DNA from: Candidatus Woesearchaeota archaeon
Lineage (GTDB): Archaea > Nanobdellota > Nanobdellia > Woesearchaeales > GW2011-AR9
Length of the DNA stretch: 34,723 bases
NCBI GenBank assembly: GCA_964201585.1
Contig: CAXNDX010000001.1
Span: 1-34,723, forward strand
Direction: 5' to 3'
In this document: positions 4,670-34,723 of the stretch, piece after piece
Numbering within the stretch: position 1 is the first letter of the stretch
Layout of the letters: each line of letters starts with the position of its first letter
Position numbers and translations under genes: made by a program
The notes under the pieces: model-generated
What the model was told of the DNA's origin: nothing
The model's input: the letters and a program-made list of their open reading frames with translations, nothing else
Databases searched by the model: none

Positions 4670-5461
4670 ATGACCTATTTAAAAAACACATTTTTGCCAA
4701 TGGTTCTCAGCTCAATGTATGTCTGCGCCTCTTATTCTCCTCCAATCTATGGCCAAGAAGCAGCCCCTAACGTACTTTTTCAACAAAGTAATCTTGAAAC
4801 AAAAATACTTGAAGATAAAGAAGAAAAACCACTCTCACAACCCTATCGCTTTAGTGAGCAAGACCTTAACAAATATCGGCGCTGGAAACAACAAGCAATC
4901 GACCATTCAAAAAAAACAGGAGAAGTTGTTCTTATTATTAATAAATCAACCTATGAATTAGATGTATATCAAAAAGGCCAATTTCAAAAAAAATTTCCGA
5001 TTGAATTAGGAAAAAATAATTACGATGACAAAAAAATTCAAGGAGATAATACCACTCCTGAAGGTTTTTATAAAATTAGAAAAGTCAAAGATATCAATAA
5101 TACCCATTTTTATCGCGCCGCAGAACTTGACTACCCAAACAAACAGGATATCGCAGAATTCCATAGATTAAAAAAAACAGGTGCGATTCCTAAAAATGCA
5201 ACAATTGGGGGAGATATCAATATTCACGGTAAAGGGAGTGGGATTTCTCCTCTCCAAGGTGGTTCCAATTGGACACAAGGATGTGCGGCTCTTTCTAATG
5301 AAGATATGGATGAATTATTTCAGTATCTAAAACAAGAGACTCAAGTTTTAATCATCAAATATGATAGCCCTATTATCTCAATTATTCCACCTGATAGCAA
5401 AACAGTTATAAAACATCTCAAATATCTCACTAAATCCATTGATCAATCAATTTTTAAGTAA
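4670..5461 (+). CDS. Secreted L,D-transpeptidase (YkuD/ErfK fold) protein
   Basis: Hydrophobic N-terminus. The catalytic region INIHGKGSG...GGSNWTQGCAALSNEDMDELF matches the YkuD HG...GC signature. Confidence 0.75.
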   Translation: MTYLKNTFLPMVLSSMYVCASYSPPIYGQEAAPNVLFQQSNLETKILEDKEEKPLSQPYRFSEQDLNKYRRWKQQAIDHSKKTGEVVLIINKSTYELDVYQKGQFQKKFPIELGKNNYDDKKIQGDNTTPEGFYKIRKVKDINNTHFYRAAELDYPNKQDIAEFHRLKKTGAIPKNATIGGDINIHGKGSGISPLQGGSNWTQGCAALSNEDMDELFQYLKQETQVLIIKYDSPIISIIPPDSKTVIKHLKYLTKSIDQSIFK

Positions 5462-6526: not shown

Positions 6527-7933
6527 TCACTTCTCCACCAACAACTCCACCACATTCTGATCCGGATCAACAAACGTCGTAATTACCCCATAACTCTTCT
6601 TCATCATCCGTTGCCCAATTACAACTCCTTTCGCTTCCAATTTCTCCGTAATCCGCCCCAACTCCTCAACTGAATTCACACGCAGCTGCACAAGCACCGG
6701 ATTATTTTTATTATACGTAAACGTATACACTTCTCTATTCTTTTGTGGTTCAATTGCAAACGTCGTCTCCCCTGTTTCAAAGCCAAACCAATTAGAAGTA
6801 TTCTTCTCACACGCCACAAGCCCAACCACATCCCGATAAAACGCAACCAATCGCGTCACATCAGACGTATACACATTCACATACGACATCTTCAACCCCT
6901 CTGACCTCGCTGAATTCTTCACCTCAACCATCGCCCCCGCAACCAACAAAGGAAACGCAATCGTCGCATCACAATACACTTTCACATGCAACGCATCAGG
7001 CCGAACTTTCCCCCACGAAATCGCTTCCTCAACTCGCGCACCCGAATCCGACCCATCAAACTCCTGCGCCGTATTAATATACACTACATAATCAAACCCC
7101 TCGCGAAAAATATTCGCATTCAACGCAAAATGTTTACTTATTCCCCCACCTAAAATAATTCCACCCGTCTTATCAACATTCAGCGTCAGATCCACAATGG
7201 CTTTAATCTCCCCTGCAACATCAACATAAAAATCAGGATGTGATTGCTTGAAAAAGAAAATCATATCCCCAAACGAACCATCAATCAACCCCGGACAAAA
7301 AACAGGAATATCATTCTTTGCCGCCCAATACAAAATCGATTTCTCATCATTAATCTTTAATCCAATCTCTCGAATCAACTCATGCGGCGTAAAAATCTTC
7401 CCCTCTTTCTTCTGTCTATCATACATCGCCAACAAAAACTCCTGCATAAACTGATCAAAATACGCAAACCGATCATTTGGTACAAACACATTCCCAATCC
7501 GATTAATTCCATGCTCAAATAACATCCTCCCTGACGCCTCAAACTGCCCCAGCACAAACGGCTTCAAACACTTAATAATATCCTCTTCAATTCCCCCTGC
7601 CGAAGTTACCAACACCTGCACTTTCTTATTCTTAACAAGATACTTGATAATCTCCCTATTCCCCGAACTCACCATATTCGACGTATAAGCGAGAAATATC
7701 ATCGCTTTCTCTCGTAGCATCACGCGCACAACCTCCATCGCTTGCGCTAAGTTAGTACCCTGAAACCCCATCTTACTATACGCCTGCAAAAACGACTGAA
7801 AATCCAACCCTTGCTCAAAATCATACCCTTCAATCACCGGATACCCCTCAAGCGTCATCGTCTCTTTAGGCATATATTGCGCATGCTTTTCTTTCAACCC
7901 ATCCTTATTATTCATATTCTCTGTAAATTTCAT
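6527..7933 (-). CDS. dys: Deoxyhypusine synthase fused in frame to a C-terminal glyoxalase/VOC domain
   Basis: DHS hallmarks are present: VTSAGGIEED, ILGGGISKHF, EAISWGKV. The same ORF continues without a stop into MSYVNVYTSDVTRLVAFYRDVVGL...VVELLVEK (VOC fold). GGAGG lies 11 nt upstream of the ATG at 7933. The track start is at 7951. Confidence 0.85.
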   Translation of the reverse strand: MKFTENMNNKDGLKEKHAQYMPKETMTLEGYPVIEGYDFEQGLDFQSFLQAYSKMGFQGTNLAQAMEVVRVMLREKAMIFLAYTSNMVSSGNREIIKYLVKNKKVQVLVTSAGGIEEDIIKCLKPFVLGQFEASGRMLFEHGINRIGNVFVPNDRFAYFDQFMQEFLLAMYDRQKKEGKIFTPHELIREIGLKINDEKSILYWAAKNDIPVFCPGLIDGSFGDMIFFFKQSHPDFYVDVAGEIKAIVDLTLNVDKTGGIILGGGISKHFALNANIFREGFDYVVYINTAQEFDGSDSGARVEEAISWGKVRPDALHVKVYCDATIAFPLLVAGAMVEVKNSARSEGLKMSYVNVYTSDVTRLVAFYRDVVGLVACEKNTSNWFGFETGETTFAIEPQKNREVYTFTYNKNNPVLVQLRVNSVEELGRITEKLEAKGVVIGQRMMKKSYGVITTFVDPDQNVVELLVEK

Positions 7934-7985
7934 AGTATAGCGAGCCTCCATTAAATTCGAACAGTTTATTATGCAATTTGCGAAC

Positions 7986-10974: not shown

Positions 10975-11475
10975 ATGCCAACTAAAATCACAATGTTCCC
11001 TGGAGATAAGATTCGTTTTTTAACCGATATCCTGCGTAAACAAACCGCCCTTCGCAACCAAATCGAATCCCGTGCCAATATCACTATAGGCTTCTCAACC
11101 GCTATCCTCGCCTTCACCCTAAGCCAATCTTTGCAAGGCAAGACAAATACGGGCCTCATCATCATCCTCTCGTTCTCTATTCTCGCTCTGCTCTCTGGTC
11201 TGCTTGCGCTCAAACCATTACAACTATTTACCTCTAAAGGTCAAGCCCAAAGCGTGTTCTATCATACCGCTATCGCCAAACAAGATCTCGCCACATACAC
11301 CAAAAAATTAAAAGACATCACCAATAGCGAACAAAAAGTACTTGAACAATACGCCCTTGAAATTCATAACATGACCTACCACTCGATTCGCATCAAAAAA
11401 TTCCTCTCCAACCTCTCCATCAAACTCTTAGTATCCGGTATAATCATCGGTGGCATCATAACTCTCATCCACTAA
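10975..11475 (+). CDS. Small 3-TM protein resembling Pycsar-effector/SLATT-type (DUF5706-like) membrane proteins
   Basis: Amphipathic N-terminus, then two adjacent TM helices (ITIGFSTAILAFTLSQ; GLIIILSFSILALLSGLLAL). After these comes LKP...SVFYHTAIA...YALEIHNMTYHSIRIKKF and a final TM helix. Assignment is by remembered domain pattern only. Confidence 0.45.
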   Translation: MPTKITMFPGDKIRFLTDILRKQTALRNQIESRANITIGFSTAILAFTLSQSLQGKTNTGLIIILSFSILALLSGLLALKPLQLFTSKGQAQSVFYHTAIAKQDLATYTKKLKDITNSEQKVLEQYALEIHNMTYHSIRIKKFLSNLSIKLLVSGIIIGGIITLIH

Positions 11476-15676: not shown

Positions 15677-16579
15677 TTAACTTCGTTTTCCTCGCCGACT
15701 CCAATGATTCTTACCTCGTTTTTTAATTTTTGCCGGTGCCCTCTGTAATCGAGGCATACTCTCTTTTAGAATCCGCAAATAACTCCCCATACTTCCCCAC
15801 TCAATCTCTAAGCCAAATTGTTTATGAACCACCTTTAGTAATTCCTCTATTGTATAATTACAGCGTGAATCAGAAATACGATATAAAATCCCCTCTTGAG
15901 ATAACTGTTGGAGTGCATACACTCCTTGAAGTTGTCTAAGTCCATTTCCCGTAATCAACTCTGTTGCAAAAATAACTCTAGTGTCTGGTAATTGCAATGT
16001 AAAATTCTGAACCAAGCGATTCGCACTCGAAAGCGAGTATCCCAAATGATCCGCAATATTTTGCTGAGACATCTCTTGTAGATCAAATGGGCTACTACTC
16101 AAAATGTATTTTCTTTGAACCTCACACAAATAAGCTGCAATTTTTAACTGATTTTCTTCAAGCCACTTCCAATTGTGTAAAAATTGTCTTGAAAAATTTC
16201 CAGGATTATCAGAACCCTGATCTTTAAATTTCTCCAATTTTGCATAAATTGATTCATCCAAAAATGGATTGTACATAATCCCATAATTCCCACAATTTTC
16301 AGAAACTAACACTTGCGGTCGCTCTAAATATCGTTGTTCACTAACAGACCCTTGCACGCTCTTGCATATTTGAAGAAAAGATGGATGTGTAAAATAATTT
16401 CCCCTAGAGTGATACTCCGGTTCTTGTTGATAGAATTCTTGTACCGCAGCTAAACTTCGATCTAACACATCTTCCAACTCCAACGCCGAAAGTCCCAGTA
16501 TAGGATTTAAAATCGGCGAACGCGGTTCTGAACGCTGTACTTGTTGCACTCTATAAGATGTTCGAATTTCCAATTCCAT
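15677..16579 (-). CDS. Divergent sigma-54 (RpoN)-like protein
   Basis: Region-I-like ILNPILGLSALELEDVLDRSL. Core-binding-like RPQVLVSENCGNYGIMYNP and WLEENQLKIAAYLCEVQRKYIL. HTH: LQEMSQQNIADHLGYSLSSANRLVQNFTLQLPDTRVIFATELI. The RpoN box is degenerate. Confidence 0.65.
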   Translation of the reverse strand: MELEIRTSYRVQQVQRSEPRSPILNPILGLSALELEDVLDRSLAAVQEFYQQEPEYHSRGNYFTHPSFLQICKSVQGSVSEQRYLERPQVLVSENCGNYGIMYNPFLDESIYAKLEKFKDQGSDNPGNFSRQFLHNWKWLEENQLKIAAYLCEVQRKYILSSSPFDLQEMSQQNIADHLGYSLSSANRLVQNFTLQLPDTRVIFATELITGNGLRQLQGVYALQQLSQEGILYRISDSRCNYTIEELLKVVHKQFGLEIEWGSMGSYLRILKESMPRLQRAPAKIKKRGKNHWSRRGKRS

Positions 16580-16646: not shown

Positions 16647-17015
16647 TCACCTCCTAAACTCCACATTTTTAATATGTTCAAATTCTTTATCCCCTGTAAG
16701 AAATTTAATCCCTTTCTCCAACGCCAATTGATACCCTAAACAATCAGCATACGAAAGCTTCTTCTTTCTCTGTTCATAGCGAAACTTCATTGCTTTTTTG
16801 ATTGTCTCTTTCGTTGGCTCAATAACAAAAGGCAATAACGTCTCAAGCACCACATCTGCTTTTTCTGAACCTGCATCCGCAAGCACCGAATAATACACCT
16901 CTAACATATTAAGCAAAGTCAAAATGCCCGTATGCTGCTCAAAATAAGAGATGAATTTTAGATTATTATTCAGATACTCAATTATTGCATAACTATCATA
17001 AAAAAATACAGCCAT
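16647..17015 (-). CDS. vapC: PIN-domain toxin VapC
   Basis: MAVFFYDSYAIIEYL (N-terminal Asp) and YADCLGYQLALEKGIKFLTGDKEF (C-terminal acidic residues). Lies directly downstream of an AbrB-type antitoxin. Confidence 0.8.
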   Translation of the reverse strand: MAVFFYDSYAIIEYLNNNLKFISYFEQHTGILTLLNMLEVYYSVLADAGSEKADVVLETLLPFVIEPTKETIKKAMKFRYEQRKKKLSYADCLGYQLALEKGIKFLTGDKEFEHIKNVEFRR

Positions 17016-17026
17016 GCCTTACCTCA

Positions 17027-17236
17027 TTACCATCCTTCCCGCATTTCATTTTTAAGCTGTTGGGCTGATTTTTTAAAATGGACTAATCCTCGTAGCTTTG
17101 TAATATCTGCAACACTTTTAATTTCAATAATGATCCGCTGATTCTCCTGCAAATGTTCTTTATCCACAATTTCTTTAGGCAGAGTTATACCTAATGAATT
17201 TCCCCATTTTCGTGTAACCGTTTCAAATTCGCCCAT
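17027..17236 (-). CDS. vapB: AbrB/SpoVT-type antitoxin VapB
   Basis: TRKWGNSLGITLPKEIVDKEHLQENQRIIIEIK is a swapped-hairpin AbrB motif. Confidence 0.8.
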   Translation of the reverse strand: MGEFETVTRKWGNSLGITLPKEIVDKEHLQENQRIIIEIKSVADITKLRGLVHFKKSAQQLKNEMREGW

Positions 17237-24458: not shown

Positions 24459-25046
24459 CTAATTTTTCGCGTTCACCGTTAAATGCACAACTAACCCGCC
24501 TTCTCCCGACTTAAAGTACTGTACTTTATCTACATACGTATGCATAAATGACGTCCCTGTACCATTATTCGTACCCGGTTTTGGCGTATTCGTAAACTCA
24601 TAGAAATCTAACATTCGCTCTCGATGCTTTCCTTCTTTATGCCGTAACACAAACGGAATAAAATCCGCATTAAGAATCCCTCCCTGGTCAATTACTGAAA
24701 TTTCAAGCGTATCTTCTGCAATTTTATACGTCAACGTTATTTTTTTTGCAGGATCCAGTTTATTACCATGCTGGTGTGCATTCAATACCGCTTCATATAA
24801 CGCCGTAAAAAAATTAGGATTATATCCTTGATTTTCCGCCTCTCGCCCAATAGGTCCAATAATTTCTCTAATTTGCCCCGCATATTCTTTTCGATTTGTA
24901 CTTAAACAAAACTCTTTGATAATATAACTTGGCTTAATTTCATACGTAGGAATCTCAAAATTTCGTAAATCGACTGTTCCTTGACGTCGAAAATGCTCCC
25001 GAAGAACTGAATCTAAACTATCAACATCAAAAATATCTAGTGCCAT
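24459..25046 (-). CDS. HATPase_c-type protein resembling anti-sigma serine kinases (RsbW/SpoIIAB family)
   Basis: N box: ALYEAVLNAHQHGN. G1: ISVIDQGGI. G2: NNGTGTSFM. It is short (195 aa) and single-domain. TTTATAAA at 25068-25075 is centred 25.5 nt upstream of the ATG. Confidence 0.6.
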   Translation of the reverse strand: MALDIFDVDSLDSVLREHFRRQGTVDLRNFEIPTYEIKPSYIIKEFCLSTNRKEYAGQIREIIGPIGREAENQGYNPNFFTALYEAVLNAHQHGNKLDPAKKITLTYKIAEDTLEISVIDQGGILNADFIPFVLRHKEGKHRERMLDFYEFTNTPKPGTNNGTGTSFMHTYVDKVQYFKSGEGGLVVHLTVNAKN

Positions 25047-27090: not shown

Positions 27091-27489
27091 CTACAATTCC
27101 AAAATCACTTTCTTTAACCCTGGCACTCTCTTAAAATCACTATCTAACGTCAATAATGTATCTCCTTTCTCCATTGTCACGGCTGCGATAAATAAATCAA
27201 ATTGTGCAATTCCTAAACCTTTCTTTAACATCTGATGCAGCACCTCAGAAAAAAGTAAACCGCTGCGATACGTTGTTTGTAAAATTGTGTATTGTTCTAA
27301 CCTCTCTAATATCCTATCTTTATTTTTATCATTCTTGCCTAAAATCCCATAATAAAATTCGCAAAAAGTGAAGATCGTAATTGCCAATTCCACATCCGGC
27401 GCATCTTTTAACACCGCAATTTGTTGAATAATCTTTTCATTTCCTTTTTCTACTTCAATTAATACGCTTGTATCAAGTACAAATCCCAT
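27091..27489 (-). CDS. vapC: PIN-domain toxin VapC
   Basis: MGFVLDTSVLIE, then FCEFYYG, then LLTLDSDFKRV. The start codon abuts the vapB stop. Confidence 0.85.
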   Translation of the reverse strand: MGFVLDTSVLIEVEKGNEKIIQQIAVLKDAPDVELAITIFTFCEFYYGILGKNDKNKDRILERLEQYTILQTTYRSGLLFSEVLHQMLKKGLGIAQFDLFIAAVTMEKGDTLLTLDSDFKRVPGLKKVILEL

Positions 27490-27738
27490 TCAGAACTTCC
27501 TCATTTTAAACCCTTTCCTAAATTCTTCACGTAGTACCTTAGAATCTACTTGTGTTAAAATTCCCTTTAATTTTTTTTCTCCATAAAGAACCTTCTCCCA
27601 ATTACTTCCCTGACATGCACTATGATGTTCTTTGATGACTTTTGCAAAAAAATCCCCCATCTTTACTCCATGCCGTATTGATTCTGATTTAAACACACAC
27701 CATTCTTCTTCATTTATATTTTTGATACAGACATCCAT
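27490..27738 (-). CDS. vapB: RHH-type antitoxin VapB
   Basis: VCIKNINEEEWCVFKSESIRHGVKMGDFFAKVIKEH is a ribbon-helix-helix pattern. TTTAAATA is centred 26.5 nt upstream of the ATG. Confidence 0.7.
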   Translation of the reverse strand: MDVCIKNINEEEWCVFKSESIRHGVKMGDFFAKVIKEHHSACQGSNWEKVLYGEKKLKGILTQVDSKVLREEFRKGFKMRKF

Positions 27739-27827: not shown

Positions 27828-28724
27828 CTACGTCCTTGGCACATCTGTAGGTGAAACAACTTTTGTTCGAATATGATAATGCGTAGAGTGCCCCGGCTCA
27901 TGACGTAATACCCCTCCAACCTCATTCCATCTCTGCATCCCATACTTTCCAACCACATACGACCGTAATCCATTAATCAATTTCTGATCTAGAAAAATCA
28001 TCTCAACCTCAAACGGCCCTCGTACTACAGAATCAATAAACAACCAATTCGCATCAAGCGCCTGAGTATTATTAAAATCCGGATGTAACCCTCCTCTCTT
28101 TTTCATTTTAGTTGTGGCATTATAATATCTTCCTTCAACCACGTCATACCCATAAATCCCCACATCTACATCTCGACCATTATGATGACTTTTATGCGGT
28201 CGTAATCTCCCTCCTCCTTCCCGACTTAAATCATGCACAACCAACGGCACATCATACACCTCTTTCATCACACATGCCGAATAATTGATCACATCAACCA
28301 ACTCTTGGCGTCCATACGTCCGTTCAGGTTTTCGTATCTCTACTAACTCGCTCTCTTTCAACTTCATCTGTGAACGACCAATCAATCCTCGCAACCCTGA
28401 AGCTGGCATTCTATATTCATTTAATTTTACTCGACACATCACCTGTGGCCTATGCTCTTGTTCATTCATCTCTACCATACACTGTTCTAACGTTTTCCCT
28501 TCAGAAACAAGCCCCGTATATTTTTCTCTCTTATCCTCATTAACTTGTTTCACAAAAGAAGGAATATACTCCTCTGCTCTCACATAAGAACTATGTGCAG
28601 CTGCAACTGCTCCGACGACAAACGGCAGCAATCTTTTTCCAATTAAATGTAAATATTCTTTCATTCTTCTTAGTATCTCACGTACTCTACACCTAAACCA
28701 AGAACATACATTAAATCTATTCAT
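27828..28724 (-). CDS. LAS-family zinc peptidase resembling penicillin-insensitive murein endopeptidase MepA (M74)
   Basis: RPHKSHHNGRDVDVGIY and EPGHSTHYHIRT match the H..(.)..D and H.H zinc ligand motifs. A signal-like segment follows the alternative ATG at 28664 (MKEYLHLIGKRLLPFVVGAVAAAHS). Confidence 0.7.
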   Translation of the reverse strand: MNRFNVCSWFRCRVREILRRMKEYLHLIGKRLLPFVVGAVAAAHSSYVRAEEYIPSFVKQVNEDKREKYTGLVSEGKTLEQCMVEMNEQEHRPQVMCRVKLNEYRMPASGLRGLIGRSQMKLKESELVEIRKPERTYGRQELVDVINYSACVMKEVYDVPLVVHDLSREGGGRLRPHKSHHNGRDVDVGIYGYDVVEGRYYNATTKMKKRGGLHPDFNNTQALDANWLFIDSVVRGPFEVEMIFLDQKLINGLRSYVVGKYGMQRWNEVGGVLRHEPGHSTHYHIRTKVVSPTDVPRT

Positions 28725-29979: not shown

Positions 29980-30441
29980 TCATTCTCTTAACACCGCAAC
30001 CATTCGTCGTAATATAAGATCCTCACGTTCCATGGACCCTTTATGAAAATCAAACCACACTCCATAAAACCACTCGCGTGAAAACATCCTCATTGAACCA
30101 TAATGTGGATCCTGCACATAAATATTCTTATCATCAATTCCTGCCACAAGTGACCAATGTCCCTCATCAGTTGACCACCATTGCACTAACACCGGAATAT
30201 TCTGAGTAATATACTCATTCACATTCGCAAATTGCGCAGTATCAATCACTCTTGTCTGCAATCCAAAATAGTTGCACCCTTTGATAATCCCATCTAACGA
30301 CACCCCTTTCTCACGTGTCGCTCCACACACCTGGGCAATCTCCTCTTCTGTTTTCTCACTCCCATAAAAATCAAGAATCATCTTAAGACATGCCGGTCCG
30401 CAAAACCCTGGTGACTGTGTAAACGGCTTATAATGCATCAT
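29980..30441 (-). CDS. Papain-fold thiol peptidase, C39-like (Peptidase_C39_2 / phytochelatin-synthase-like)
   Basis: FTQSPGFCGPACLKMILDFYG (catalytic Cys context) and EGHWSLVAGIDDKNIYVQDP (His/Asp). The track start at 30447 is TTG; the ATG is at 30441. Confidence 0.65.
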   Translation of the reverse strand: MMHYKPFTQSPGFCGPACLKMILDFYGSEKTEEEIAQVCGATREKGVSLDGIIKGCNYFGLQTRVIDTAQFANVNEYITQNIPVLVQWWSTDEGHWSLVAGIDDKNIYVQDPHYGSMRMFSREWFYGVWFDFHKGSMEREDLILRRMVAVLRE

Positions 30442-30447
30442 ACTCAA

Positions 30448-31644
30448 CTACTCACTCAACCCTTGTTTATATAACTCTCGCAAAAACATATTTCCTTGCG
30501 CCGCTCGTTCTGCTGTAAATCGTGTTGCGTTATATCCATCTTTTCGTAAATATCTATTTAAAGATGTTGAAGGATTAATTCCACTCTGTGTCATCTCAAT
30601 TATGGGATTAAGATATCCTTGCTCTGATTTAGACAACCCTTGTTCTGCAAATTGTATAATTTGACCCACATACTTCTGCATATGCTCAGATGTAAGCCCA
30701 TATCTAATCGCTTCCTGTTCTAACATTCGTAACGTTCGCAACGTTGGCAACACAATTTTTCGCTCCGAAAACTCATACTCATTATCTCGTTGCGCAATCT
30801 CAACTTTAATATTCTCTTGTAACATTCTATCATTACACCCTTTATACAATGCCATGGCTCCTAACCCATACTGCAACGGCGTGCTGTCACATGTTCGTAT
30901 TTCAAACGTTCCTGTTTTTCCAATTCCATCACGTGTACGAATCGGTGCATATCCTGTATTTTCTGGTGTAAACAACGAACCAAACTTTTCCGCTGACATT
31001 CCTGACGCACTCTGCCACTGCCAAAACCGTTCAATATTCTGCTTCTCCAACTCCTCTAACGTCTGCGGATAGTCCTGCAGTTGCGCATGCAATGGAAACG
31101 CTGAAAACACATGATACCTCATCAATTGGATTCGATGGCAATTCAAACTATTCAAGCCATCATAGCGTAAAGGTGACGTCGATGTAACACCATACGACAT
31201 CGGATCAAGTGCATATAACAACTGAAACTGCGCTAATTTTTTCTTCTCATTCGTATCTTGAGAAATATGAATATGGATTCCTGAAATCGTATTAATCTTT
31301 AAATTCTTCTCCCTGCCAATAATCGTATCATACGCATCATACCTCTCTTTACCTTCACGAGTAATTCCTTTTCCTGCTCCATACTCACTTGCCGCTACCG
31401 GATACACTCCATAATCAGCACAAATCTGTTCTAACAACCCTAATTTCTCCCTCATCTCTATTGCCAATTCACTAATTGTCTCCAGAGGTTTAGAATTATA
31501 CTCTACCTGTGCTAACGTCGCTTCGGCAACAAAACAACTCGGATTTCGTCTATCACCTAGAACTGTATCTGCTATATTAGAAAGATACCCCTCTTTATCT
31601 ATCAAATTCAATTCCACTTCCACACCTATAGATGATTGACTCAT
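30448..31644 (-). CDS. Carboxylate-amine ligase, glutamate-cysteine ligase family 2 (GCS2/YbdK-like)
   Basis: IGVEVELNLIDKEGYL, ISGIHIHIS and FEIRTCDS are typical of the GCS2 family. Confidence 0.8.
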   Translation of the reverse strand: MSQSSIGVEVELNLIDKEGYLSNIADTVLGDRRNPSCFVAEATLAQVEYNSKPLETISELAIEMREKLGLLEQICADYGVYPVAASEYGAGKGITREGKERYDAYDTIIGREKNLKINTISGIHIHISQDTNEKKKLAQFQLLYALDPMSYGVTSTSPLRYDGLNSLNCHRIQLMRYHVFSAFPLHAQLQDYPQTLEELEKQNIERFWQWQSASGMSAEKFGSLFTPENTGYAPIRTRDGIGKTGTFEIRTCDSTPLQYGLGAMALYKGCNDRMLQENIKVEIAQRDNEYEFSERKIVLPTLRTLRMLEQEAIRYGLTSEHMQKYVGQIIQFAEQGLSKSEQGYLNPIIEMTQSGINPSTSLNRYLRKDGYNATRFTAERAAQGNMFLRELYKQGLSE

Positions 31645-31702: not shown

Positions 31703-32740
31703 TTATTTGTCTAACTTTCCTGAACGTTCTAACGCTTCTGTCGCAATTCGCACAATTAACTGATCATACGTCATTCCCGCACCCTCAATCATATTTCGTA
31801 ACGTATCCCCAGTACTATGGATATCTGGATTAGCATTAATATCAATAATATACGGCACCGCTCGCCCTTGATCATCTCGTTTCACACGATAATCAAACCG
31901 TCCATAATCAGTTATTCCAAACAATTCCGCAATTCTTCCTGTATAATATTTTGTCATCTCCTCTAACGATTCTGGCAAGCCCGAAAATTCTGCCTTTGCC
32001 ACTTCATCCCATTTAATATCATAATCCCGAAACTTCGCTCTCCCCTCAAATCCCTTGCGGAACGCAAAATGCGCAACTTTCAAATACGATTTATTCGCAT
32101 TTCCCACAAAAAAACACGATAACTCTTTAAAATCTGCATCTTCCAGATACTCTTCTAACACCCACTGTGTCAAATCTCCTTTCTTTTGCTGTATCTCTTG
32201 TACTTTACCGCTCACCTGCTCAGGAGTATACATCACCGAATCTTTCGTCATGCCATAACTCCCATACGAATTACGCTGCTTTAAAATAACCGGAAACTTT
32301 TGTCCATTCCTCTTCTCGCTCATACCATCTCCCACTTCATCCCATTGCGAAAGTAATTGTACTTGCGGCGTTGGAATTCCCATCTCTTGCGTATATAATT
32401 TTGTAATATACTTATCTAACGTGCTTCGTAACACCGCACTTCCTGATCCCGTAAACGGAATTTTCAACACTTCCATAAACGACGCAATATGTGATTCATA
32501 TGCAATATTTTGATAAATCCCTAAATCTGCACAATTGAATACCAAATCAACTAGATTCCCTTCTTTTAACCGTTGCAAACCTTCTACCCATCGCAAATGA
32601 GTATCCAAATACAATCCTGCCACTGTATGCCCTTCTTTTCGTAATGCCTCTGTCACATCTTGTTGTATACCCCAAGAATTTTGTACTGGTTTTAGTTCAC
32701 TTTCACTAATCCCTTGATGTAATACGATAATATTTGCCAT
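31703..32740 (-). CDS. ATP-grasp ligase of the D-Ala-D-Ala ligase-like type
   Basis: N-terminal Ddl-like domain (VDLVFNCADLG...IPFTGSGS...DKYITK), a central FPVILKQRNSYGSYGM, and the C-terminal YGRFDYRV...YIIDINANPD. Confidence 0.8.
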   Translation of the reverse strand: MANIIVLHQGISESELKPVQNSWGIQQDVTEALRKEGHTVAGLYLDTHLRWVEGLQRLKEGNLVDLVFNCADLGIYQNIAYESHIASFMEVLKIPFTGSGSAVLRSTLDKYITKLYTQEMGIPTPQVQLLSQWDEVGDGMSEKRNGQKFPVILKQRNSYGSYGMTKDSVMYTPEQVSGKVQEIQQKKGDLTQWVLEEYLEDADFKELSCFFVGNANKSYLKVAHFAFRKGFEGRAKFRDYDIKWDEVAKAEFSGLPESLEEMTKYYTGRIAELFGITDYGRFDYRVKRDDQGRAVPYIIDINANPDIHSTGDTLRNMIEGAGMTYDQLIVRIATEALERSGKLDK

Positions 32741-32914: not shown

Positions 32915-33889
32915 ATGCTCCACAAAAAAGATTTACGGCTCTTATATGAACTCGATAGCAACTATCGTAAAACATTTACTCAGATCGGTAAAAAAATAAG
33001 AATGAGCGAACAATTAGTCAGCTATAAAATACATTCATTTGAAGAAAAAAAAATTATTCTTGATTATGTTCCTAATATCGACTATTCCCGTTTCGGCTAC
33101 CTTACGTTTATCGTCTTCTTCAAAGTCCATTACATCAACGAACAGAGCTTTGAACGCCTCACTCATAAACTCAAACAACATGAAAATATCACCTCCATAA
33201 TTGAATGTGACGGCAACTATGATTTGATGGTCACCTTCGCCGCAAAAAACCCCTCCTCTTTCAACAAAAAATTAAAACAATTAGTCTCTGAAAATCCAAA
33301 AGAACTTCGTCATCATACTATTCTTACAACCGTTGTAGAACATCACTTCCCTCGCAGTTATTTAATCGACTCAGAAGACCGCTATGACACCATTTTAGGC
33401 GGTGATCGTGAAGAAATCAAAATTGATCAACTCAATCTTAATCTCATCAAATCATTAATCAACGGCAAGAAAAAAGTAATTGACATCGCGCAAGAAATAA
33501 AAATCACTCCTAAAACCGTCATCACACACTTAAAATGGCTCGAAGAGCAACAAATCATCAAAAGCTATCGCCTCTTACTCAATCCTAAAGCAATGGACGT
33601 CTTTGCCAATATCATTTTAGTCAGATACCGCAATATTACATTAGAAGACGAAGAAAACTTCCGTCGCTTCTGTAAATACCATCCTAATGTCGTTGAATTC
33701 ACTAAAACATTTGGCGAATGGGATGTCGTCGTCCACACCGAAACAAACCATCGCGAACAATTCCGTAAACTCTCATTGCAGATTCGCGAAAAATTTGAAG
33801 ACATCATCGAAGCCAGCGACAACTTTCGCGTATTCAACATCCCCAAAAAACAATATCTTCCTCAAGAAATATTTAACGAAGAAAACTAA
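32915..33889 (+). CDS. Tandem-duplicated Lrp/AsnC-family regulator (two HTH+RAM units)
   Basis: Unit 1: DLRLLYELDSNYRKTFTQIGKKIRMSEQLVSYKI. Unit 2: NLNLIKSLINGKKKVIDIAQEIKITPKTVITHLKWLEEQQIIK. Each unit is followed by a RAM-like beta-alpha-beta segment. Confidence 0.75.
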   Translation: MLHKKDLRLLYELDSNYRKTFTQIGKKIRMSEQLVSYKIHSFEEKKIILDYVPNIDYSRFGYLTFIVFFKVHYINEQSFERLTHKLKQHENITSIIECDGNYDLMVTFAAKNPSSFNKKLKQLVSENPKELRHHTILTTVVEHHFPRSYLIDSEDRYDTILGGDREEIKIDQLNLNLIKSLINGKKKVIDIAQEIKITPKTVITHLKWLEEQQIIKSYRLLLNPKAMDVFANIILVRYRNITLEDEENFRRFCKYHPNVVEFTKTFGEWDVVVHTETNHREQFRKLSLQIREKFEDIIEASDNFRVFNIPKKQYLPQEIFNEEN

Positions 33890-33913
33890 AAATCACTTTT
33901 CAAAAAGCAATCT

Positions 33914-33970
33914 TTTTTCAATACTTCATTTTCTTCAATACTTTAATTTCTTCAATACTTTAATTTCTTA
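33914..33970. repeat. Tandem 17-nt direct repeats (about 3.4 copies)
   Basis: tttttcaatacttcatt / ttcttcaatactttaat / ttcttcaatactttaat / ttctta. Ends about 32 nt upstream of the sigma-70-like TATA box. Confidence 0.85.
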
Positions 33971-34001: not shown

Positions 34002-34009
34002 TTTATAAA
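34002..34009 (+). promoter_or_regulatory. TATA box TTTATAAA of the sigma-70-like gene
   Basis: Centred 26.5 nt upstream of the ATG at 34032, with no SD, so a leaderless layout. Confidence 0.5.
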
Positions 34010-34031
34010 TCACTTTCTTTGCCAAAAAAAA

Positions 34032-34723
34032 ATGATTATCACAAATTATATCTCTGAAATCAGTCGCTATCCTAATCTCACAAGAGAAGAAGAATACTAT
34101 CTCGCACAAAAAGCAAAATTAGGAGACAAAGAAAGTAAACATACTCTCATAAAATCAAATCTTCGTTTTGTTGTCTATCTTGCTAAAAAATATCATCATC
34201 CTAAATACAACAATTTAATTGACCTCATTCAAGAAGGCAACATTGGTCTGATCAATTCCATAGATAGATACATACCCCAGTCTGGCAACAGATTAATAAC
34301 CTATGCCGCATACCACATTAAAGAACACATCATTACTTACTTGAAAGATAATCGATTTCCCATCGAGACGACAACAGAAGAAAAACGTCTCATTCCTAAA
34401 TTAAATCAATTCAGACAACAATACACCCAAGAAAAAGGAACTATTCCCTCTCTTGAAGAAATTACTTCCTGGCTCAATCAATATGCCCAAAAAAGATATG
34501 ACTCAACCGATGCCCTTTCTTTACTAGAACTCAGCCAGCAATCTCTAATCTATTTAGACACTCCTCTTAACGATAAGAAAACAGAAAGCTGGCACGATCG
34601 CATTCCCCATTCTACCCTCACAAGTTTAGATCATCTCGAACAACACAACTATCAATCAATAATTGAAAAAACAATTGACGCTCTAGAGATAGAAGATAAC
34701 ATAAAATATATCCTCCTCGCTCA
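34032..34723 (+). CDS. Sigma-70-family protein (regions 1.2, 2, 3 and the start of 4); 3' end lies outside the window
   Basis: Absent from the track because it runs off the window without a stop. YISEISRYPNLTREEE (region 1.2). LIKSNLRFVVYLAKKY...LIDLIQEGNIGLINSIDRY...ITYAAYHIKEHI (region 2). GTIPSLEEITSWL and IYLDTPLND (region 3). Confidence 0.85.
   Translation, partial: MIITNYISEISRYPNLTREEEYYLAQKAKLGDKESKHTLIKSNLRFVVYLAKKYHHPKYNNLIDLIQEGNIGLINSIDRYIPQSGNRLITYAAYHIKEHIITYLKDNRFPIETTTEEKRLIPKLNQFRQQYTQEKGTIPSLEEITSWLNQYAQKRYDSTDALSLLELSQQSLIYLDTPLNDKKTESWHDRIPHSTLTSLDHLEQHNYQSIIEKTIDALEIEDNIKYILLA

What the first reader, a model, noticed from the sequence alone, without database searches (positions are those of the whole stretch)
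34002..34723. Sigma-70-family gene driven by a canonical archaeal TATA box
The partial ORF, invisible in the ORF track, has clear sigma-70 regions 1.2, 2.1-2.4 and 3 (NLRFVVYLAKKY, DLIQEGNIGLINSIDRY, ITYAAYHIKEHI). It lacks region 1.1, so it resembles compact SigB/SigF/FliA-like sigmas. TTTATAAA is centred exactly 26.5 nt upstream of the ATG with no SD, matching other leaderless genes here. The window also holds a sigma-54-like gene and an RsbW-like kinase fold. Together these suggest a retained bacterial-type sigma toolkit in an organism whose ribosomal and promoter features are archaeal.
Basis: partly seen in the sequence, partly recalled or inferred. Interest (0 to 1): 0.75.

Follow-up and report, generated by a model that had tools for sequence, protein, structure and literature searches.

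The report
Bacterial-type sigma gene in a Woesearchaeon
A real bacterial-type sigma-70 family gene sits in the chromosome of a tiny DPANN (Woesearchaeota) archaeon and uses a normal archaeal promoter; such genes have been reported before, and this copy evolves fast, has lost the usual promoter-reading residues, and is cut short by a stop codon in this contig.

Summary
An ORF starting at ATG 34032 (+) runs off the window and encodes a clear sigma-70 family protein: regions 1.2 and 2 by Pfam, and full-length matches to RpoS/RpoH/SigA. TTTATAAA is centred 26.5 nt upstream, with no SD. That TATA position recurs in 9 of 42 window genes, against about 0.2 expected.

The host is a Woesearchaeota archaeon. 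It is not a chimera: the junction appears in three assemblies, a sister species carries a syntenic orthologue, and the gene shares its neighbours' extreme strand composition.

New points:
- In this contig the ORF ends at a TAA four codons past the window, just before region 4.2. Two sister assemblies read GAA and give an intact 290-aa protein.
- The orthologue is only 42.5% identical, while flanking genes are 82-93% identical.
- Consensus residues are kept in regions 1.2-2.2 (31/34) but largely lost after them (3/18 kept), including all 11 in region 4.

The sigma-54-like claim is unsupported. The RsbW-like protein is supported only at domain level, with no sign of linkage to sigma.

Sigma-70 genes in Woesearchaeota were reported by Castelle et al. 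2021, so this is a new, divergent member of a known kind. Function is untested.

The parts
34032..34723 (+). Sigma-70 family ORF, first 230 codons. It continues 4 codons beyond the window to a TAA at window-equivalent 34734-34736 (L001 10703-10705). The intact allele in sister assemblies is 290 aa.
34038..34133 (+). Region 1.2 (aa 3-34)
   Evidence: Pfam PF00140 E=1e-8, 35.5 bits against cut-off 22
34146..34355 (+). Region 2 (aa 39-108). The core-docking helix DLIQEGNIGL is conserved. The WW dyad of region 2.3 is replaced by Y94-H95.
   Evidence: Pfam PF04542 E=3e-11; conserved-column test; alignment to SigA
34374..34601 (+). Region 3 (aa about 115-190), divergent
   Evidence: Pfam r3 only E=0.075; covered by full-length RpoS/RpoH models and by Foldseek alignment to sigmaS 5ipl_F over 284 columns
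34626..34721 (+). Start of region 4 (4.1, aa 199-230). Region 4.2 lies beyond the window, after the stop codon in this contig.
34002..34009 (+). TATA box TTTATAAA, centred 26.5 nt upstream of the ATG. The purine-rich stretch just upstream (aggaata) resembles the BRE-like stretch of other promoters in the window. This implies a leaderless mRNA.
   Evidence: the orthologue has TTTATAAA at -28.5
33913..33969 (+). 17-nt tandem repeat TTTCTTCAATACTTTAA, 3.4 copies, between the upstream regulator gene and the TATA box. It may be an operator, but it is specific to this species.
32915..33889 (+). Upstream neighbour: tandem-duplicated Lrp/AsnC-type regulator (324 aa), syntenic with sigma in the sister species
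24459..25046 (-). RsbW/SpoIIAB-like GHKL ATPase (HATPase_c_2, 195 aa) with its own TATA box at -25.5. It is only a candidate partner; no link to sigma is shown.

Best explanation
This is a genuine sigma-70 family gene of bacterial ancestry with the architecture sigma1.2-sigma2-sigma3-sigma4 and no sigma1.1. The intact form is 290 aa. It is a long-term resident of a Woesearchaeota (DPANN) chromosome.

Shown:
- It is preceded by the host's standard BRE/TATA arrangement at the spacing this genome uses for leaderless genes.
- It carries the host's extreme strand-specific base composition.
- It occupies the same chromosomal slot (Lrp-like regulator, sigma, TerC) in a sister species.
- It evolves much faster than its flanking genes, but the ORF stays open with dN/dS below 1.
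- It keeps the sigma1.2-sigma2.2 scaffold, including the helix that docks on the RNAP clamp coiled-coil in bacteria.
- Most of the consensus positions after that scaffold are replaced, among them the ones I recognise as promoter-DNA contacts (the WW dyad of sigma2.3 and the recognition helix of sigma4.2).

Inferred: it no longer works as a canonical bacterial initiation factor. It most likely acts as a lineage-specific accessory transcription regulator. In that model sigma2 serves as a protein-docking module, most plausibly on the clamp coiled-coil of the archaeal RNAP, and the re-specified sigma4 HTH binds DNA.

In this particular contig a G-to-T change (GAA to TAA) four codons past the window end removes sigma4.2 and the conserved tail. 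This allele is probably a null or hypomorphic variant segregating in the population, or an assembler's choice of a minor haplotype.
For: Identity:
- Pfam r1.2 and r2 matches.
- AF2 mean pLDDT 84.9, with region 4 at 94-97.
- Foldseek top hits are sigmaS, SigA and sigma32.

Archaeal residence:
- An L1/L10P/P1 operon, deoxyhypusine synthase and TrmB regulators lie in the window.
- The best named hits for L1 are Candidatus Woesearchaeota.
- A ThrRS with the archaeal editing domain lies downstream.
- The locus is identical in three assemblies.
- The sigma gene has G 0.11 and C 0.23, like other plus-strand genes; minus-strand genes have G 0.24-0.32.

Promoter: TATA positional enrichment is 9/42 against about 0.2 expected. 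The orthologue's TATA is at -28.5.

Selection:
- The syntenic orthologue P0243 is 42.5% identical, with dN 0.53 and omega about 0.33 (dS near saturation). Lrp is 82%, TerC 93% and HATPase_c_2 89% identical, with omega 0.07-0.09.
- Both orthologues keep full-length ORFs.
- Region 4.2 and the tail are among the best-conserved parts between them, at 47-50%.

Asymmetric conservation against bacterial consensus: 31/34 conserved columns are kept in aa 1-92, 3/18 after that, and 0/11 in region 4. The changes include WW to YH, R231H, E250N, R253K and Q254P.

Nonsense allele: there are only 2 differences in 17,463 nt between this contig and a sister assembly, and both lie in region 4.

Precedent: sigma-70 genes were reported in DPANN, especially Woesearchaeota (PMC8204110).
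Against: - No experiment or expression data exist. Binding to archaeal RNAP is pure inference, and no RNAP gene is in the contig to test an interface.
- Conservation of the sigma2.2 helix could be structural rather than an interaction surface.
- Rapid evolution, the nonsense allele and the loss of DNA-reading residues are also what a decaying gene would show.
- Alternative bacterial sigmas also vary at 2.3/2.4, so loss of the WW dyad alone does not prove loss of promoter melting.
- dS is near saturation, so omega is imprecise.
- Only one clear orthologue exists. Other 'family' members are barely closer than bacterial sigmas.
Confidence: 0.6

Rival explanations
1. The gene is a non-functional relic of an old transfer from bacteria, drifting towards a pseudogene. 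The stop codon in this contig is the first visible lesion.
For: - Nonsense allele just before region 4.2.
- 42.5% identity to the orthologue against 82-93% for flanking genes.
- All 11 bacterial consensus positions of region 4 and the WW dyad are lost.
- No close relatives in the genome or metagenome scans.
- No bacterial core RNAP is expected in an archaeon (PMC8204110).
Against: - Two of three assemblies have the intact 290-aa ORF.
- The orthologue keeps a full-length ORF despite about 57% amino-acid divergence. That is not expected without selection, and omega is about 0.33, below 1.
- Region 4.2 and the tail are among the best-conserved parts between orthologues.
- The promoter is conserved in both species.
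- The fold is predicted with confidence.
Confidence: 0.15
2. It is a conflict-related gene in a hypervariable, exchangeable island. It could be a virus- or MGE-derived sigma-like factor used in defence or counter-defence. Alternatively it could be delivered to a bacterial host, whose RNAP it would still dock on through the conserved sigma2.2 helix.
For: - Fast evolution alongside other fast genes in the same stretch: Peptidase_M74 47%, MFS 38%, a 157-aa protein 42%.
- Gene content between DUF6159 and TerC differs between species.
- Within the sister species, the block Lrp-198aa-sigma-74aa-305aa is identical between two contigs whose flanking genes differ by 4-13% in nucleotide sequence.
- Several of the nearest non-family homologues sit in phage- or MGE-like contigs, with YopX, ParA and runs of hypothetical genes.
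- The window holds bacterial wall-active enzymes: YkuD, Peptidase_M74 and a Ddl-like ATP-grasp.
Against: - No integrase, capsid or known defence partner is nearby.
- PADLOC gives only a generic match to the sigma domain of MzaA, at 47 bits.
- No signal peptide or secretion system was identified.
- The gene has a fixed chromosomal position in two species and a host-type promoter.
Confidence: 0.15
3. This is the first reader's model: a working bacterial-type sigma toolkit, in which the sigma-70 homologue is controlled by an RsbW-like anti-sigma kinase alongside a sigma-54-like factor, operates in an archaeon.
For: - The 195-aa HATPase_c_2 protein best matches SpoIIAB and RsbW.
- It is strongly conserved, at 88.7% with omega 0.09.
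- It is syntenic in both species.
Against: - The sigma-54 assignment fails (E=0.014-0.18; no RpoN box). The AF2 model is unusable, at pLDDT 33.
- The RsbW-like gene is 9 kb away, on the other strand, with its own promoter.
- Its evolutionary rate is about ten times lower than sigma's, which argues against a co-evolving pair.
- No STAS or PP2C partner appears in the ORFs scanned.
- All RsbW/SpoIIAB equivalog scores are far below their cut-offs.
Confidence: 0.06
4. It is an assembly chimera or bacterial contamination joined to an archaeal contig near 33.9-34.0 kb.
For: The sigma-70 family is otherwise a bacterial hallmark.
Against: - The same junction appears in three independent assemblies, with 0-2 differences in 17 kb.
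- A syntenic orthologue is seen on 18 contigs of a sister species.
- Archaeal markers lie on both sides: L1/L10P/P1 upstream and the archaeal ThrRS editing domain downstream.
- The gene shares the neighbours' extreme strand composition.
- It has a host-type TATA promoter.
Confidence: 0.02

Closest known systems
Sigma-70 family genes reported in DPANN archaea, especially Woesearchaeota (fam00359; Castelle et al. 2021, PMC8204110)
   Same: A sigma-70-classified protein encoded in a Woesearchaeota genome, with misbinning excluded by co-encoded archaeal markers. Function and control are unknown.
   Different: I could not obtain the family's sequences, so membership in that exact family is untested. 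This gene has only one clear orthologue (41-43% identity) among 1.8 billion representatives. The paper found no anti-sigma factors, whereas this contig holds an RsbW/SpoIIAB-like HATPase_c_2 protein, though no link to sigma is shown.
Bacterial group 2/3 sigma factors (RpoS, RpoH) and primary SigA/RpoD
   Same: The domain order is 1.2-2-3-4. Models align end to end and the fold matches sigmaS, SigA and sigma32. The core-docking helix DLIQEGNIGL is conserved.
   Different: Scores are 95-123 bits against cut-offs of 241-572, so it is not a member of any equivalog. WW is replaced by YH in region 2.3. Region 4 keeps none of 11 consensus positions, including R253K and Q254P in the recognition helix. 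The host has an archaeal transcription apparatus.
Phage- or MGE-encoded sigma-70-like factors
   Same: Compact sigmas without region 1.1. Some of the nearest non-family hits (P0003, P0005) lie in phage-like contigs. They evolve rapidly.
   Different: This gene sits at a fixed chromosomal locus in two species, among cellular genes and behind a host-type archaeal promoter.
RsbW/SpoIIAB anti-sigma serine kinases (for the 195-aa neighbour at 24459-25046)
   Same: It has an HATPase_c_2 domain. By my reading of the sequence, N-box-like (EAVLNAHQHG) and G-box-like (DQGG, GTGTS) motifs are present. RsbW and SpoIIAB are its best profile and PDB matches.
   Different: Scores are 24-30 bits against cut-offs of 135-155. 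It carries an extra N-terminal extension of about 50 aa. No STAS partner was found, it is not adjacent to sigma, and it evolves much more slowly than sigma.

Membership tests
Sigma-70 family (superfamily level) | Region 2 domain (PF04542) above the gathering score | tested here: met
   43.4 bits against 24, E=3e-11, aa 39-108
Sigma-70 family (superfamily level) | Region 1.2 (PF00140), typical of groups 1-3 | tested here: met
   35.5 bits against 22, aa 3-34
Sigma-70 family (superfamily level) | Region 3 domain (PF04539) | tested here: inconclusive
   Pfam E=0.075, 13.6 bits against 25.3. However, full-length models and the Foldseek alignment span it.
Sigma-70 family (superfamily level) | Region 4 HTH (PF04545) present and translated | tested here: not met
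   For the allele in this contig, TAA four codons past the window removes region 4.2. For the intact sister allele, Pfam r4 is below threshold (E=0.003-0.02), but the HTH fold is predicted at pLDDT 94-97 and TIGR02937 scores 72.5 against 42.9.
Sigma-70 family (superfamily level) | Binds core RNAP and directs promoter-specific initiation | not testable with these tools
   Needs biochemistry. Only conservation of the sigma2.2 docking helix is shown.
Canonical promoter-reading sigma (groups 1-3) | Aromatic WW dyad of region 2.3 and conserved region 4.2 recognition residues (E. coli W433/W434, E585, R588, Q589; numbering from established knowledge) | tested here: not met
   Y94/H95 stand where 91-100% of 58 homologues have W/W. 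N250, K253 and P254 stand where 97-98% have E, R and Q.
RpoS / RpoH / RpoD / SigB-F-G equivalogs (NCBIfam) | Score at or above the curated family cut-off | tested here: not met
   RpoS 123.3 against 378.7; RpoH 105 against 323; RpoD 95.6 against 572; SigBFG 76.1 against 234
DPANN sigma-70 set (fam00359, PMC8204110) | Sigma-70-classified protein on a contig whose co-encoded markers are DPANN/Woesearchaeota | tested here: met
   L1 best named hits are Woesearchaeota; archaeal r-protein operon and ThrRS editing domain flank the gene
DPANN sigma-70 set (fam00359, PMC8204110) | Sequence clusters with the published family members | not testable with these tools
   The family's sequences are not held, and the supplement search found nothing.
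RsbW/SpoIIAB anti-sigma kinase (195-aa protein, 24459-25046) | HATPase_c_2 domain | tested here: met
   39.3 bits against 27.4
RsbW/SpoIIAB anti-sigma kinase (195-aa protein, 24459-25046) | Equivalog-level score; cognate STAS antagonist; genetic linkage to its sigma | tested here: not met
   24-30 bits against 135-155. No STAS or PP2C in the scanned ORFs. The gene is 9 kb from sigma in a separate unit.
Sigma-54 (300-aa protein, 15677-16579) | Sigma54 DNA-binding domain with RpoN box, plus the core-binding and activator-interacting domains | tested here: not met
   Sigma54_DBD E=0.18, 12 bits against 22.8. TIGR02395 E=0.014, 14.4 bits against 277. No PDB hit at E<=10. I see no RpoN box (ARRTVAKYR, from established knowledge) in the translated C-terminus. 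AF2 pLDDT is 33.

The most novel reading that the evidence does not exclude
The protein is a working cross-domain transcription factor. Its intact sigma2 module would dock on the clamp coiled-coil of a multisubunit RNAP that is not its ancestral partner. That could be the Woesearchaeon's own archaeal RNAP, where it would compete with or complement TFE and Spt5. Alternatively it could be the RNAP of a bacterial host into which it is delivered, an idea prompted by the bacterial wall-active enzymes in the same window. In either case the re-specified sigma4 HTH would target a new set of promoters.
Probability: 0.12. Interest if true: 0.9.

Novelty: new member of a known kind. Interest (0 to 1): 0.45.

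Why it matters
Sigma factors define bacterial transcription initiation, whereas archaea use TBP, TFB and TFE. A sigma homologue that is expressed natively and kept under selection in an archaeon raises the question of what it binds.

This locus provides a concrete test case. There is an intact allele and a naturally truncated one. A syntenic orthologue pair shows which surfaces are kept (sigma1.2-2.2; sigma4.2 and the tail within the lineage) and which bacterial DNA-reading residues are gone. A conserved RsbW-like protein is also available to test as a partner.

The presence of such genes in Woesearchaeota is already published and nothing here reveals function, so the advance is incremental.

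Tried and rejected
- Genome-contig scan with the protein returned one chance bacterial hit at 31% identity and no relative among GTDB representatives.
- Metagenome-contig scan with the single protein found nothing. A 2-sequence alignment was flooded by ordinary bacterial sigmas at 28-43% identity.
- A word-index search with the family profile returned only 3 further compact relatives (P0287, P0302, P0390), on short, uninformative contigs. Their neighbouring genes show TATA-like boxes at about -27 to -31, but their taxonomy stays unproven.
- P0391 and P0392 turned out to be ordinary bacterial RpoD-like proteins.
- I did not build a donor-lineage phylogeny. Pairwise scores show the P0241/P0243 pair is barely closer to the other compact sigmas than to bacterial ones, so a tree would not resolve a donor.
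- Sigma-54-like protein: profile, PDB and single-sequence AF2 all failed.
- PADLOC gave no defence-system context for sigma.
- Rfam and tRNA scans of the window were empty.
- The supplement search of PMC8204110 for fam00359 found nothing.
- A bacterial -35/-10 scan around the gene was not enriched.
- TAA recoding was rejected. TAA, TAG and TGA all terminate ordinary genes in the contig, and sister assemblies read GAA at that codon.
Full report
**1. What is at the coordinates.** An ATG at 34032 (+) opens a frame that stays open for 230 codons to the last base of the window. The ORF listing omits it because ORFs that run off the source are not listed.

Profile and structure matches are:
- Pfam Sigma70_r1_2: aa 3-34, E=1e-8.
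- Pfam Sigma70_r2: aa 39-108, E=3e-11. Both Pfam matches are above the gathering scores.
- NCBIfam RpoS, RpoH and RpoD models align over aa 3-219.
- The best solved-structure match is B. subtilis SigA (7ckq_F, E=3.8e-21, aa 5-223).

There is no region 1.1. The r1.2 match begins at residue 3, and the orthologue found later starts at the same Met. An in-frame TTG 20 codons upstream would only add a short, non-homologous extension running through the TATA box.

**2. Promoter.** TTTATAAA occupies 34002-34009 and is centred 26.5 nt before the A of the ATG. No GGAGG-like element follows it.

Across 42 confident genes, an exact TTTAWAWA is centred between -31 and -23 in 9 genes, including this one. 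Only 5 other matches fall anywhere in the 80-nt upstream regions. The window-wide density is 0.58 per kb per strand, so about 0.2 such hits are expected by chance. By my reading of the upstream sequences, these promoters share a purine-rich stretch just upstream of the box. Twelve genes, mostly internal to operons such as L1/L10/P1, have SD-like motifs instead.

The sigma gene therefore carries the host's standard signal for leaderless genes. This is a sequence inference, and no TSS data exist.

**3. Host and integrity of the contig.** The window encodes several archaeal markers:
- An archaeal L1 / L10P(P0) / P1 operon.
- Deoxyhypusine synthase.
- TrmB-type regulators.

The L1 protein's best named relatives are Candidatus Woesearchaeota (GTDB Nanoarchaeota), at 66-76% identity.

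The exact protein was found on ENA contig ERZ27280223:k141_774866, which is 48.7 kb. The same locus occurs in two more assemblies, with 0-2 differences in up to 17.4 kb. Downstream lies a ThrRS with the archaea-specific editing domain PF08915.

The whole region has an extreme strand asymmetry, summarised below.

| Sequence class | Measure |
|---|---|
| Plus-strand genes | G 0.11-0.18, C 0.22-0.26 |
| Minus-strand genes (own coding sense) | G 0.15-0.32, C 0.08-0.19 |
| Third positions, plus-strand genes | GC skew -0.65 |
| Third positions, minus-strand genes | GC skew +0.75 (in mRNA sense) |

The sigma gene (G 0.11, C 0.23) fits its strand. Chimerism and recent contamination are therefore excluded, and the gene has been resident long enough to take on the host's composition.

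**4. The 3' end: a stop codon before region 4.2.** The called protein (P0001) is 234 aa, so the ORF ends at a TAA only four codons past the window. This is L001 10703-10705, equivalent to window 34734-34736.

The same frame continues after the stop with a region-4.2-like sequence: QTNESLAKELQLPSNRIKPLCHRGLRVLRHALL.... With the stop masked:
- RpoS, RpoH and RpoD models align end to end. The RpoS score rises from 110.6 to 123.3 bits.
- The superfamily model TIGR02937 is passed, at 72.5 against 42.9.
- Pfam r4 stays below threshold, at E=0.003-0.02.

The second member of the 90% cluster, P0241, is exactly this read-through product. It is 290 aa, with Glu235 (GAA) in place of the stop and Tyr238 in place of Asn. 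It occurs in two sister assemblies.

Over 17,463 aligned bases, this contig and the sister contig differ at only those two positions, which are 9 nt apart. TAA recoding is excluded, because TAA, TAG and TGA all end ordinary genes here. Two linked changes look more like a real minor haplotype than random error, but this needs read mapping.

**5. Structure.** AF2 on the intact allele, with a 62-sequence alignment, gives a mean pLDDT of 84.9. Only the region 3.2 linker (171-202) is low, and region 4 scores 94-97.

Foldseek against the PDB aligns 269-284 columns to sigmaS (5ipl_F, E=2.3e-13), SigA and sigma32. The low TM-scores reflect domain arrangement in a free model compared with holoenzyme-bound sigma.

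**6. What is conserved and what is not.** I took columns that are at least 80% conserved among 58 bacterial-type homologues.

| Part of the protein | Conserved columns kept |
|---|---|
| aa 1-92 (regions 1.2, 2.1, 2.2, including DLIQEGNIGL) | 31 of 34 |
| From aa 94 onward | 3 of 18 |
| Region 4 alone | 0 of 11 |

Specific replacements are:
- The WW dyad of region 2.3 is Y94-H95.
- The R of the IRIP motif is E112.
- In region 4: R231H, E250N, R253K and Q254P. The last puts a proline in the recognition helix.

Mapping these positions to E. coli W433/W434, E585, R588 and Q589 rests on established knowledge of sigma70. Alternative bacterial sigmas also vary in 2.3/2.4, so this shows departure from the canonical promoter-reading residues rather than proof of lost function.

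**7. Relatives and evolutionary rate.** An exhaustive HMMER search of 1.84 billion representatives found nothing above 46% identity (40% over the full length). One protein, P0243 (287 aa, 41-43% identical), shares the start, the length and the distinctive C-terminus GLR.LR.AL..HPEA..LFP.

Its contigs (18 seen) are syntenic with ours. The shared gene order is:
- L1
- TrmB-like
- HATPase_c_2
- DUF6159
- Peptidase_M74
- MFS
- Lrp x2
- sigma
- TerC
- a zinc-finger protein
- ThrRS

The orthologue has TTTATAAA centred at -28.5.

Gene-by-gene comparison of the two species gives the figures below.

| Gene | Protein identity | Rate |
|---|---|---|
| Sigma | 42.5% | dN 0.53, dS about 1.6 (near saturation), omega about 0.33 |
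| Lrp-like | 82% | omega 0.09 |
| TerC | 93% | omega 0.07 |
| HATPase_c_2 | 88.7% | omega 0.09 |
| DUF6159 | 91.6% | omega 0.08 |
| Peptidase_M74 | 47% | omega 0.49 |
| MFS | 38% | omega 0.42 |
| 157-aa protein | 42% | omega 0.50 |

Divergence is spread along sigma. Region 1.2 (50%), region 4.2 (47%) and the tail (50%) are the best kept between the orthologues.

Sigma is thus fast-evolving yet kept open and under net purifying selection. Within this lineage, region 4.2 is constrained even though it no longer resembles the bacterial consensus. That fits re-specification better than decay, and it suggests the truncated allele is defective.

The stretch between DUF6159 and TerC differs in gene content between species. 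In the sister species, a block Lrp-198aa-sigma-74aa-305aa is identical between two contigs whose flanking genes differ by 4-13%. This points to recent exchange or a sweep of the block.

Other compact sigmas of about 270-290 aa (P0248, P0249, P0253, P0258, P0287, P0302, P0390) are only marginally closer than bacterial sigmas. Their WW position varies: WW, WF, YY, CR, WY, YW.

**8. The 'toolkit' claim.**

The 195-aa protein at 24459-25046 (minus strand) has an HATPase_c_2 domain (7.8e-10). Its best matches are SpoIIAB (4e-7) and RsbW (7e-6; PDB 6m36, 1e-3), all far below the equivalog cut-offs. By my reading of the sequence, N-box-like and G-box-like motifs are present. Several points argue against a link to sigma:
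- It lies 9 kb away, on the other strand, with its own TATA box.
- It evolves about ten times more slowly than sigma.
- No STAS or PP2C partner appears in the ORFs scanned.

It remains a candidate worth testing, because Castelle et al. reported no anti-sigma candidates.

The 'sigma-54-like' protein at 15677-16579 gives only generic HTH hits:
- Sigma54_DBD E=0.18.
- TIGR02395 E=0.014.
- No PDB hit at E<=10.
- Single-sequence AF2 pLDDT of 33.

That claim is unsupported.

**9. Comparison with what is known.** Castelle et al. 2021 (PMC8204110) reported several things:
- Sigma-70-classified genes (fam00359) occur in DPANN.
- They are particularly prevalent in Woesearchaeota.
- Misbinning was excluded.
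- No anti-sigma factors were found.
- The control mechanism is unclear.

No other paper in the library addresses them. The finding is therefore a new, very divergent member of a known kind. The following are not mentioned in the one passage of that paper that discusses sigma factors:
- The host-type promoter.
- The syntenic orthologue and the contrast in evolutionary rate.
- The asymmetric loss of consensus residues.
- The nonsense allele.
- The nearby RsbW-like gene.

**10. Verdict.** The best explanation is a domesticated, fast-evolving sigma-70 family regulator of bacterial origin. It has probably been repurposed, with sigma2 as a docking module and a re-specified sigma4 HTH, and it is truncated in this contig. 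Identity and residence are shown, while the mechanism is inferred.

Rival explanations:
- A decaying relic (0.15).
- A conflict-related or host-directed island gene (0.15).
- A working RsbW-controlled toolkit (0.06).
- A chimera (0.02).

Interest is 0.45.

Noticed in passing
whole window 1-34723 (also L001, L007, L093): There is extreme strand compositional asymmetry that does not depend on gene orientation. GC skew of the plus strand is -0.10 to -0.54 per kb. Third-codon-position GC skew is -0.65 for plus-strand genes and +0.75 (mRNA sense) for minus-strand genes, and intergenic skew is -0.36. It reshapes protein composition: Gly, Val and Met are about 2-fold lower, and His about 2.2-fold higher, in plus-strand genes. 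No sign change occurs in 48 kb. The sister species shows the same pattern. The paper library holds nothing on such skew in Woesearchaeota.
   Followed up: partly
just beyond the window end (window-equivalent 34734 and 34743; L001 10703 and 10712): Only two differences separate this contig from a sister assembly over 17,463 nt, and they lie 9 nt apart inside sigma region 4. They are GAA to TAA (a stop) and TAC to AAC. The G-to-T change follows the direction of the plus-strand G depletion.
   Followed up: partly
33913-33969: A 17-nt tandem repeat TTTCTTCAATACTTTAA (3.4 copies, 92% matches) lies between the Lrp-like gene and the sigma TATA box. It is absent elsewhere in the window and from the orthologous locus of the sister species.
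   Followed up: partly
4670-5461 (+), 27828-28724 (-), 31703-32740 (-), 29980-31644 (-): An archaeon carries bacterial cell-wall-type enzymes: a YkuD L,D-transpeptidase (1.1e-17), a Peptidase_M74 murein endopeptidase, and a D-Ala-D-Ala-ligase-like ATP-grasp. The ATP-grasp sits next to a GCS2 ligase, a C39 peptidase and an MFS transporter, which looks like a peptide synthesis and export cluster. This cluster is missing from the sister species' locus, and M74 evolves fast at 47% identity.
   Followed up: partly
6527-7951 (-): Deoxyhypusine synthase (5.9e-113) is fused to a C-terminal glyoxalase/VOC domain at aa 355-470.
   Followed up: no
10975-11475 (+): A 166-aa membrane protein matches the Pycsar effector PycTM (PADLOC 4.7e-11; Pfam 1.9e-4). 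No cyclase was recognised next to it, and the neighbouring 200-aa and 142-aa ORFs have no significant Pfam hit.
   Followed up: no
15677-16579 (-): A 300-aa protein with its own TATA box at -27.5 has an HTH segment (NIADHLGYSLSSANRLVQNFTLQLP). By my recollection, this loosely resembles the sigma-54 HTH. Statistical support is absent (E=0.014-0.18) and there is no usable model, so its identity is unresolved.
   Followed up: partly
L093 versus L095 (sister species): The five-gene block Lrp-198aa-sigma-74aa-305aa is identical at the nucleotide level between two contigs whose flanking genes differ by 4-13%. This suggests recent recombination or a sweep of the sigma-containing block.
   Followed up: no
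16647-17236 (-), 27091-27738 (-): There are two PIN-domain toxin modules. One (16647-17015) is paired with a MazE-like antitoxin (17027-17236). The other (27091-27489) is paired with an 82-aa ORF that has no Pfam hit.
   Followed up: no
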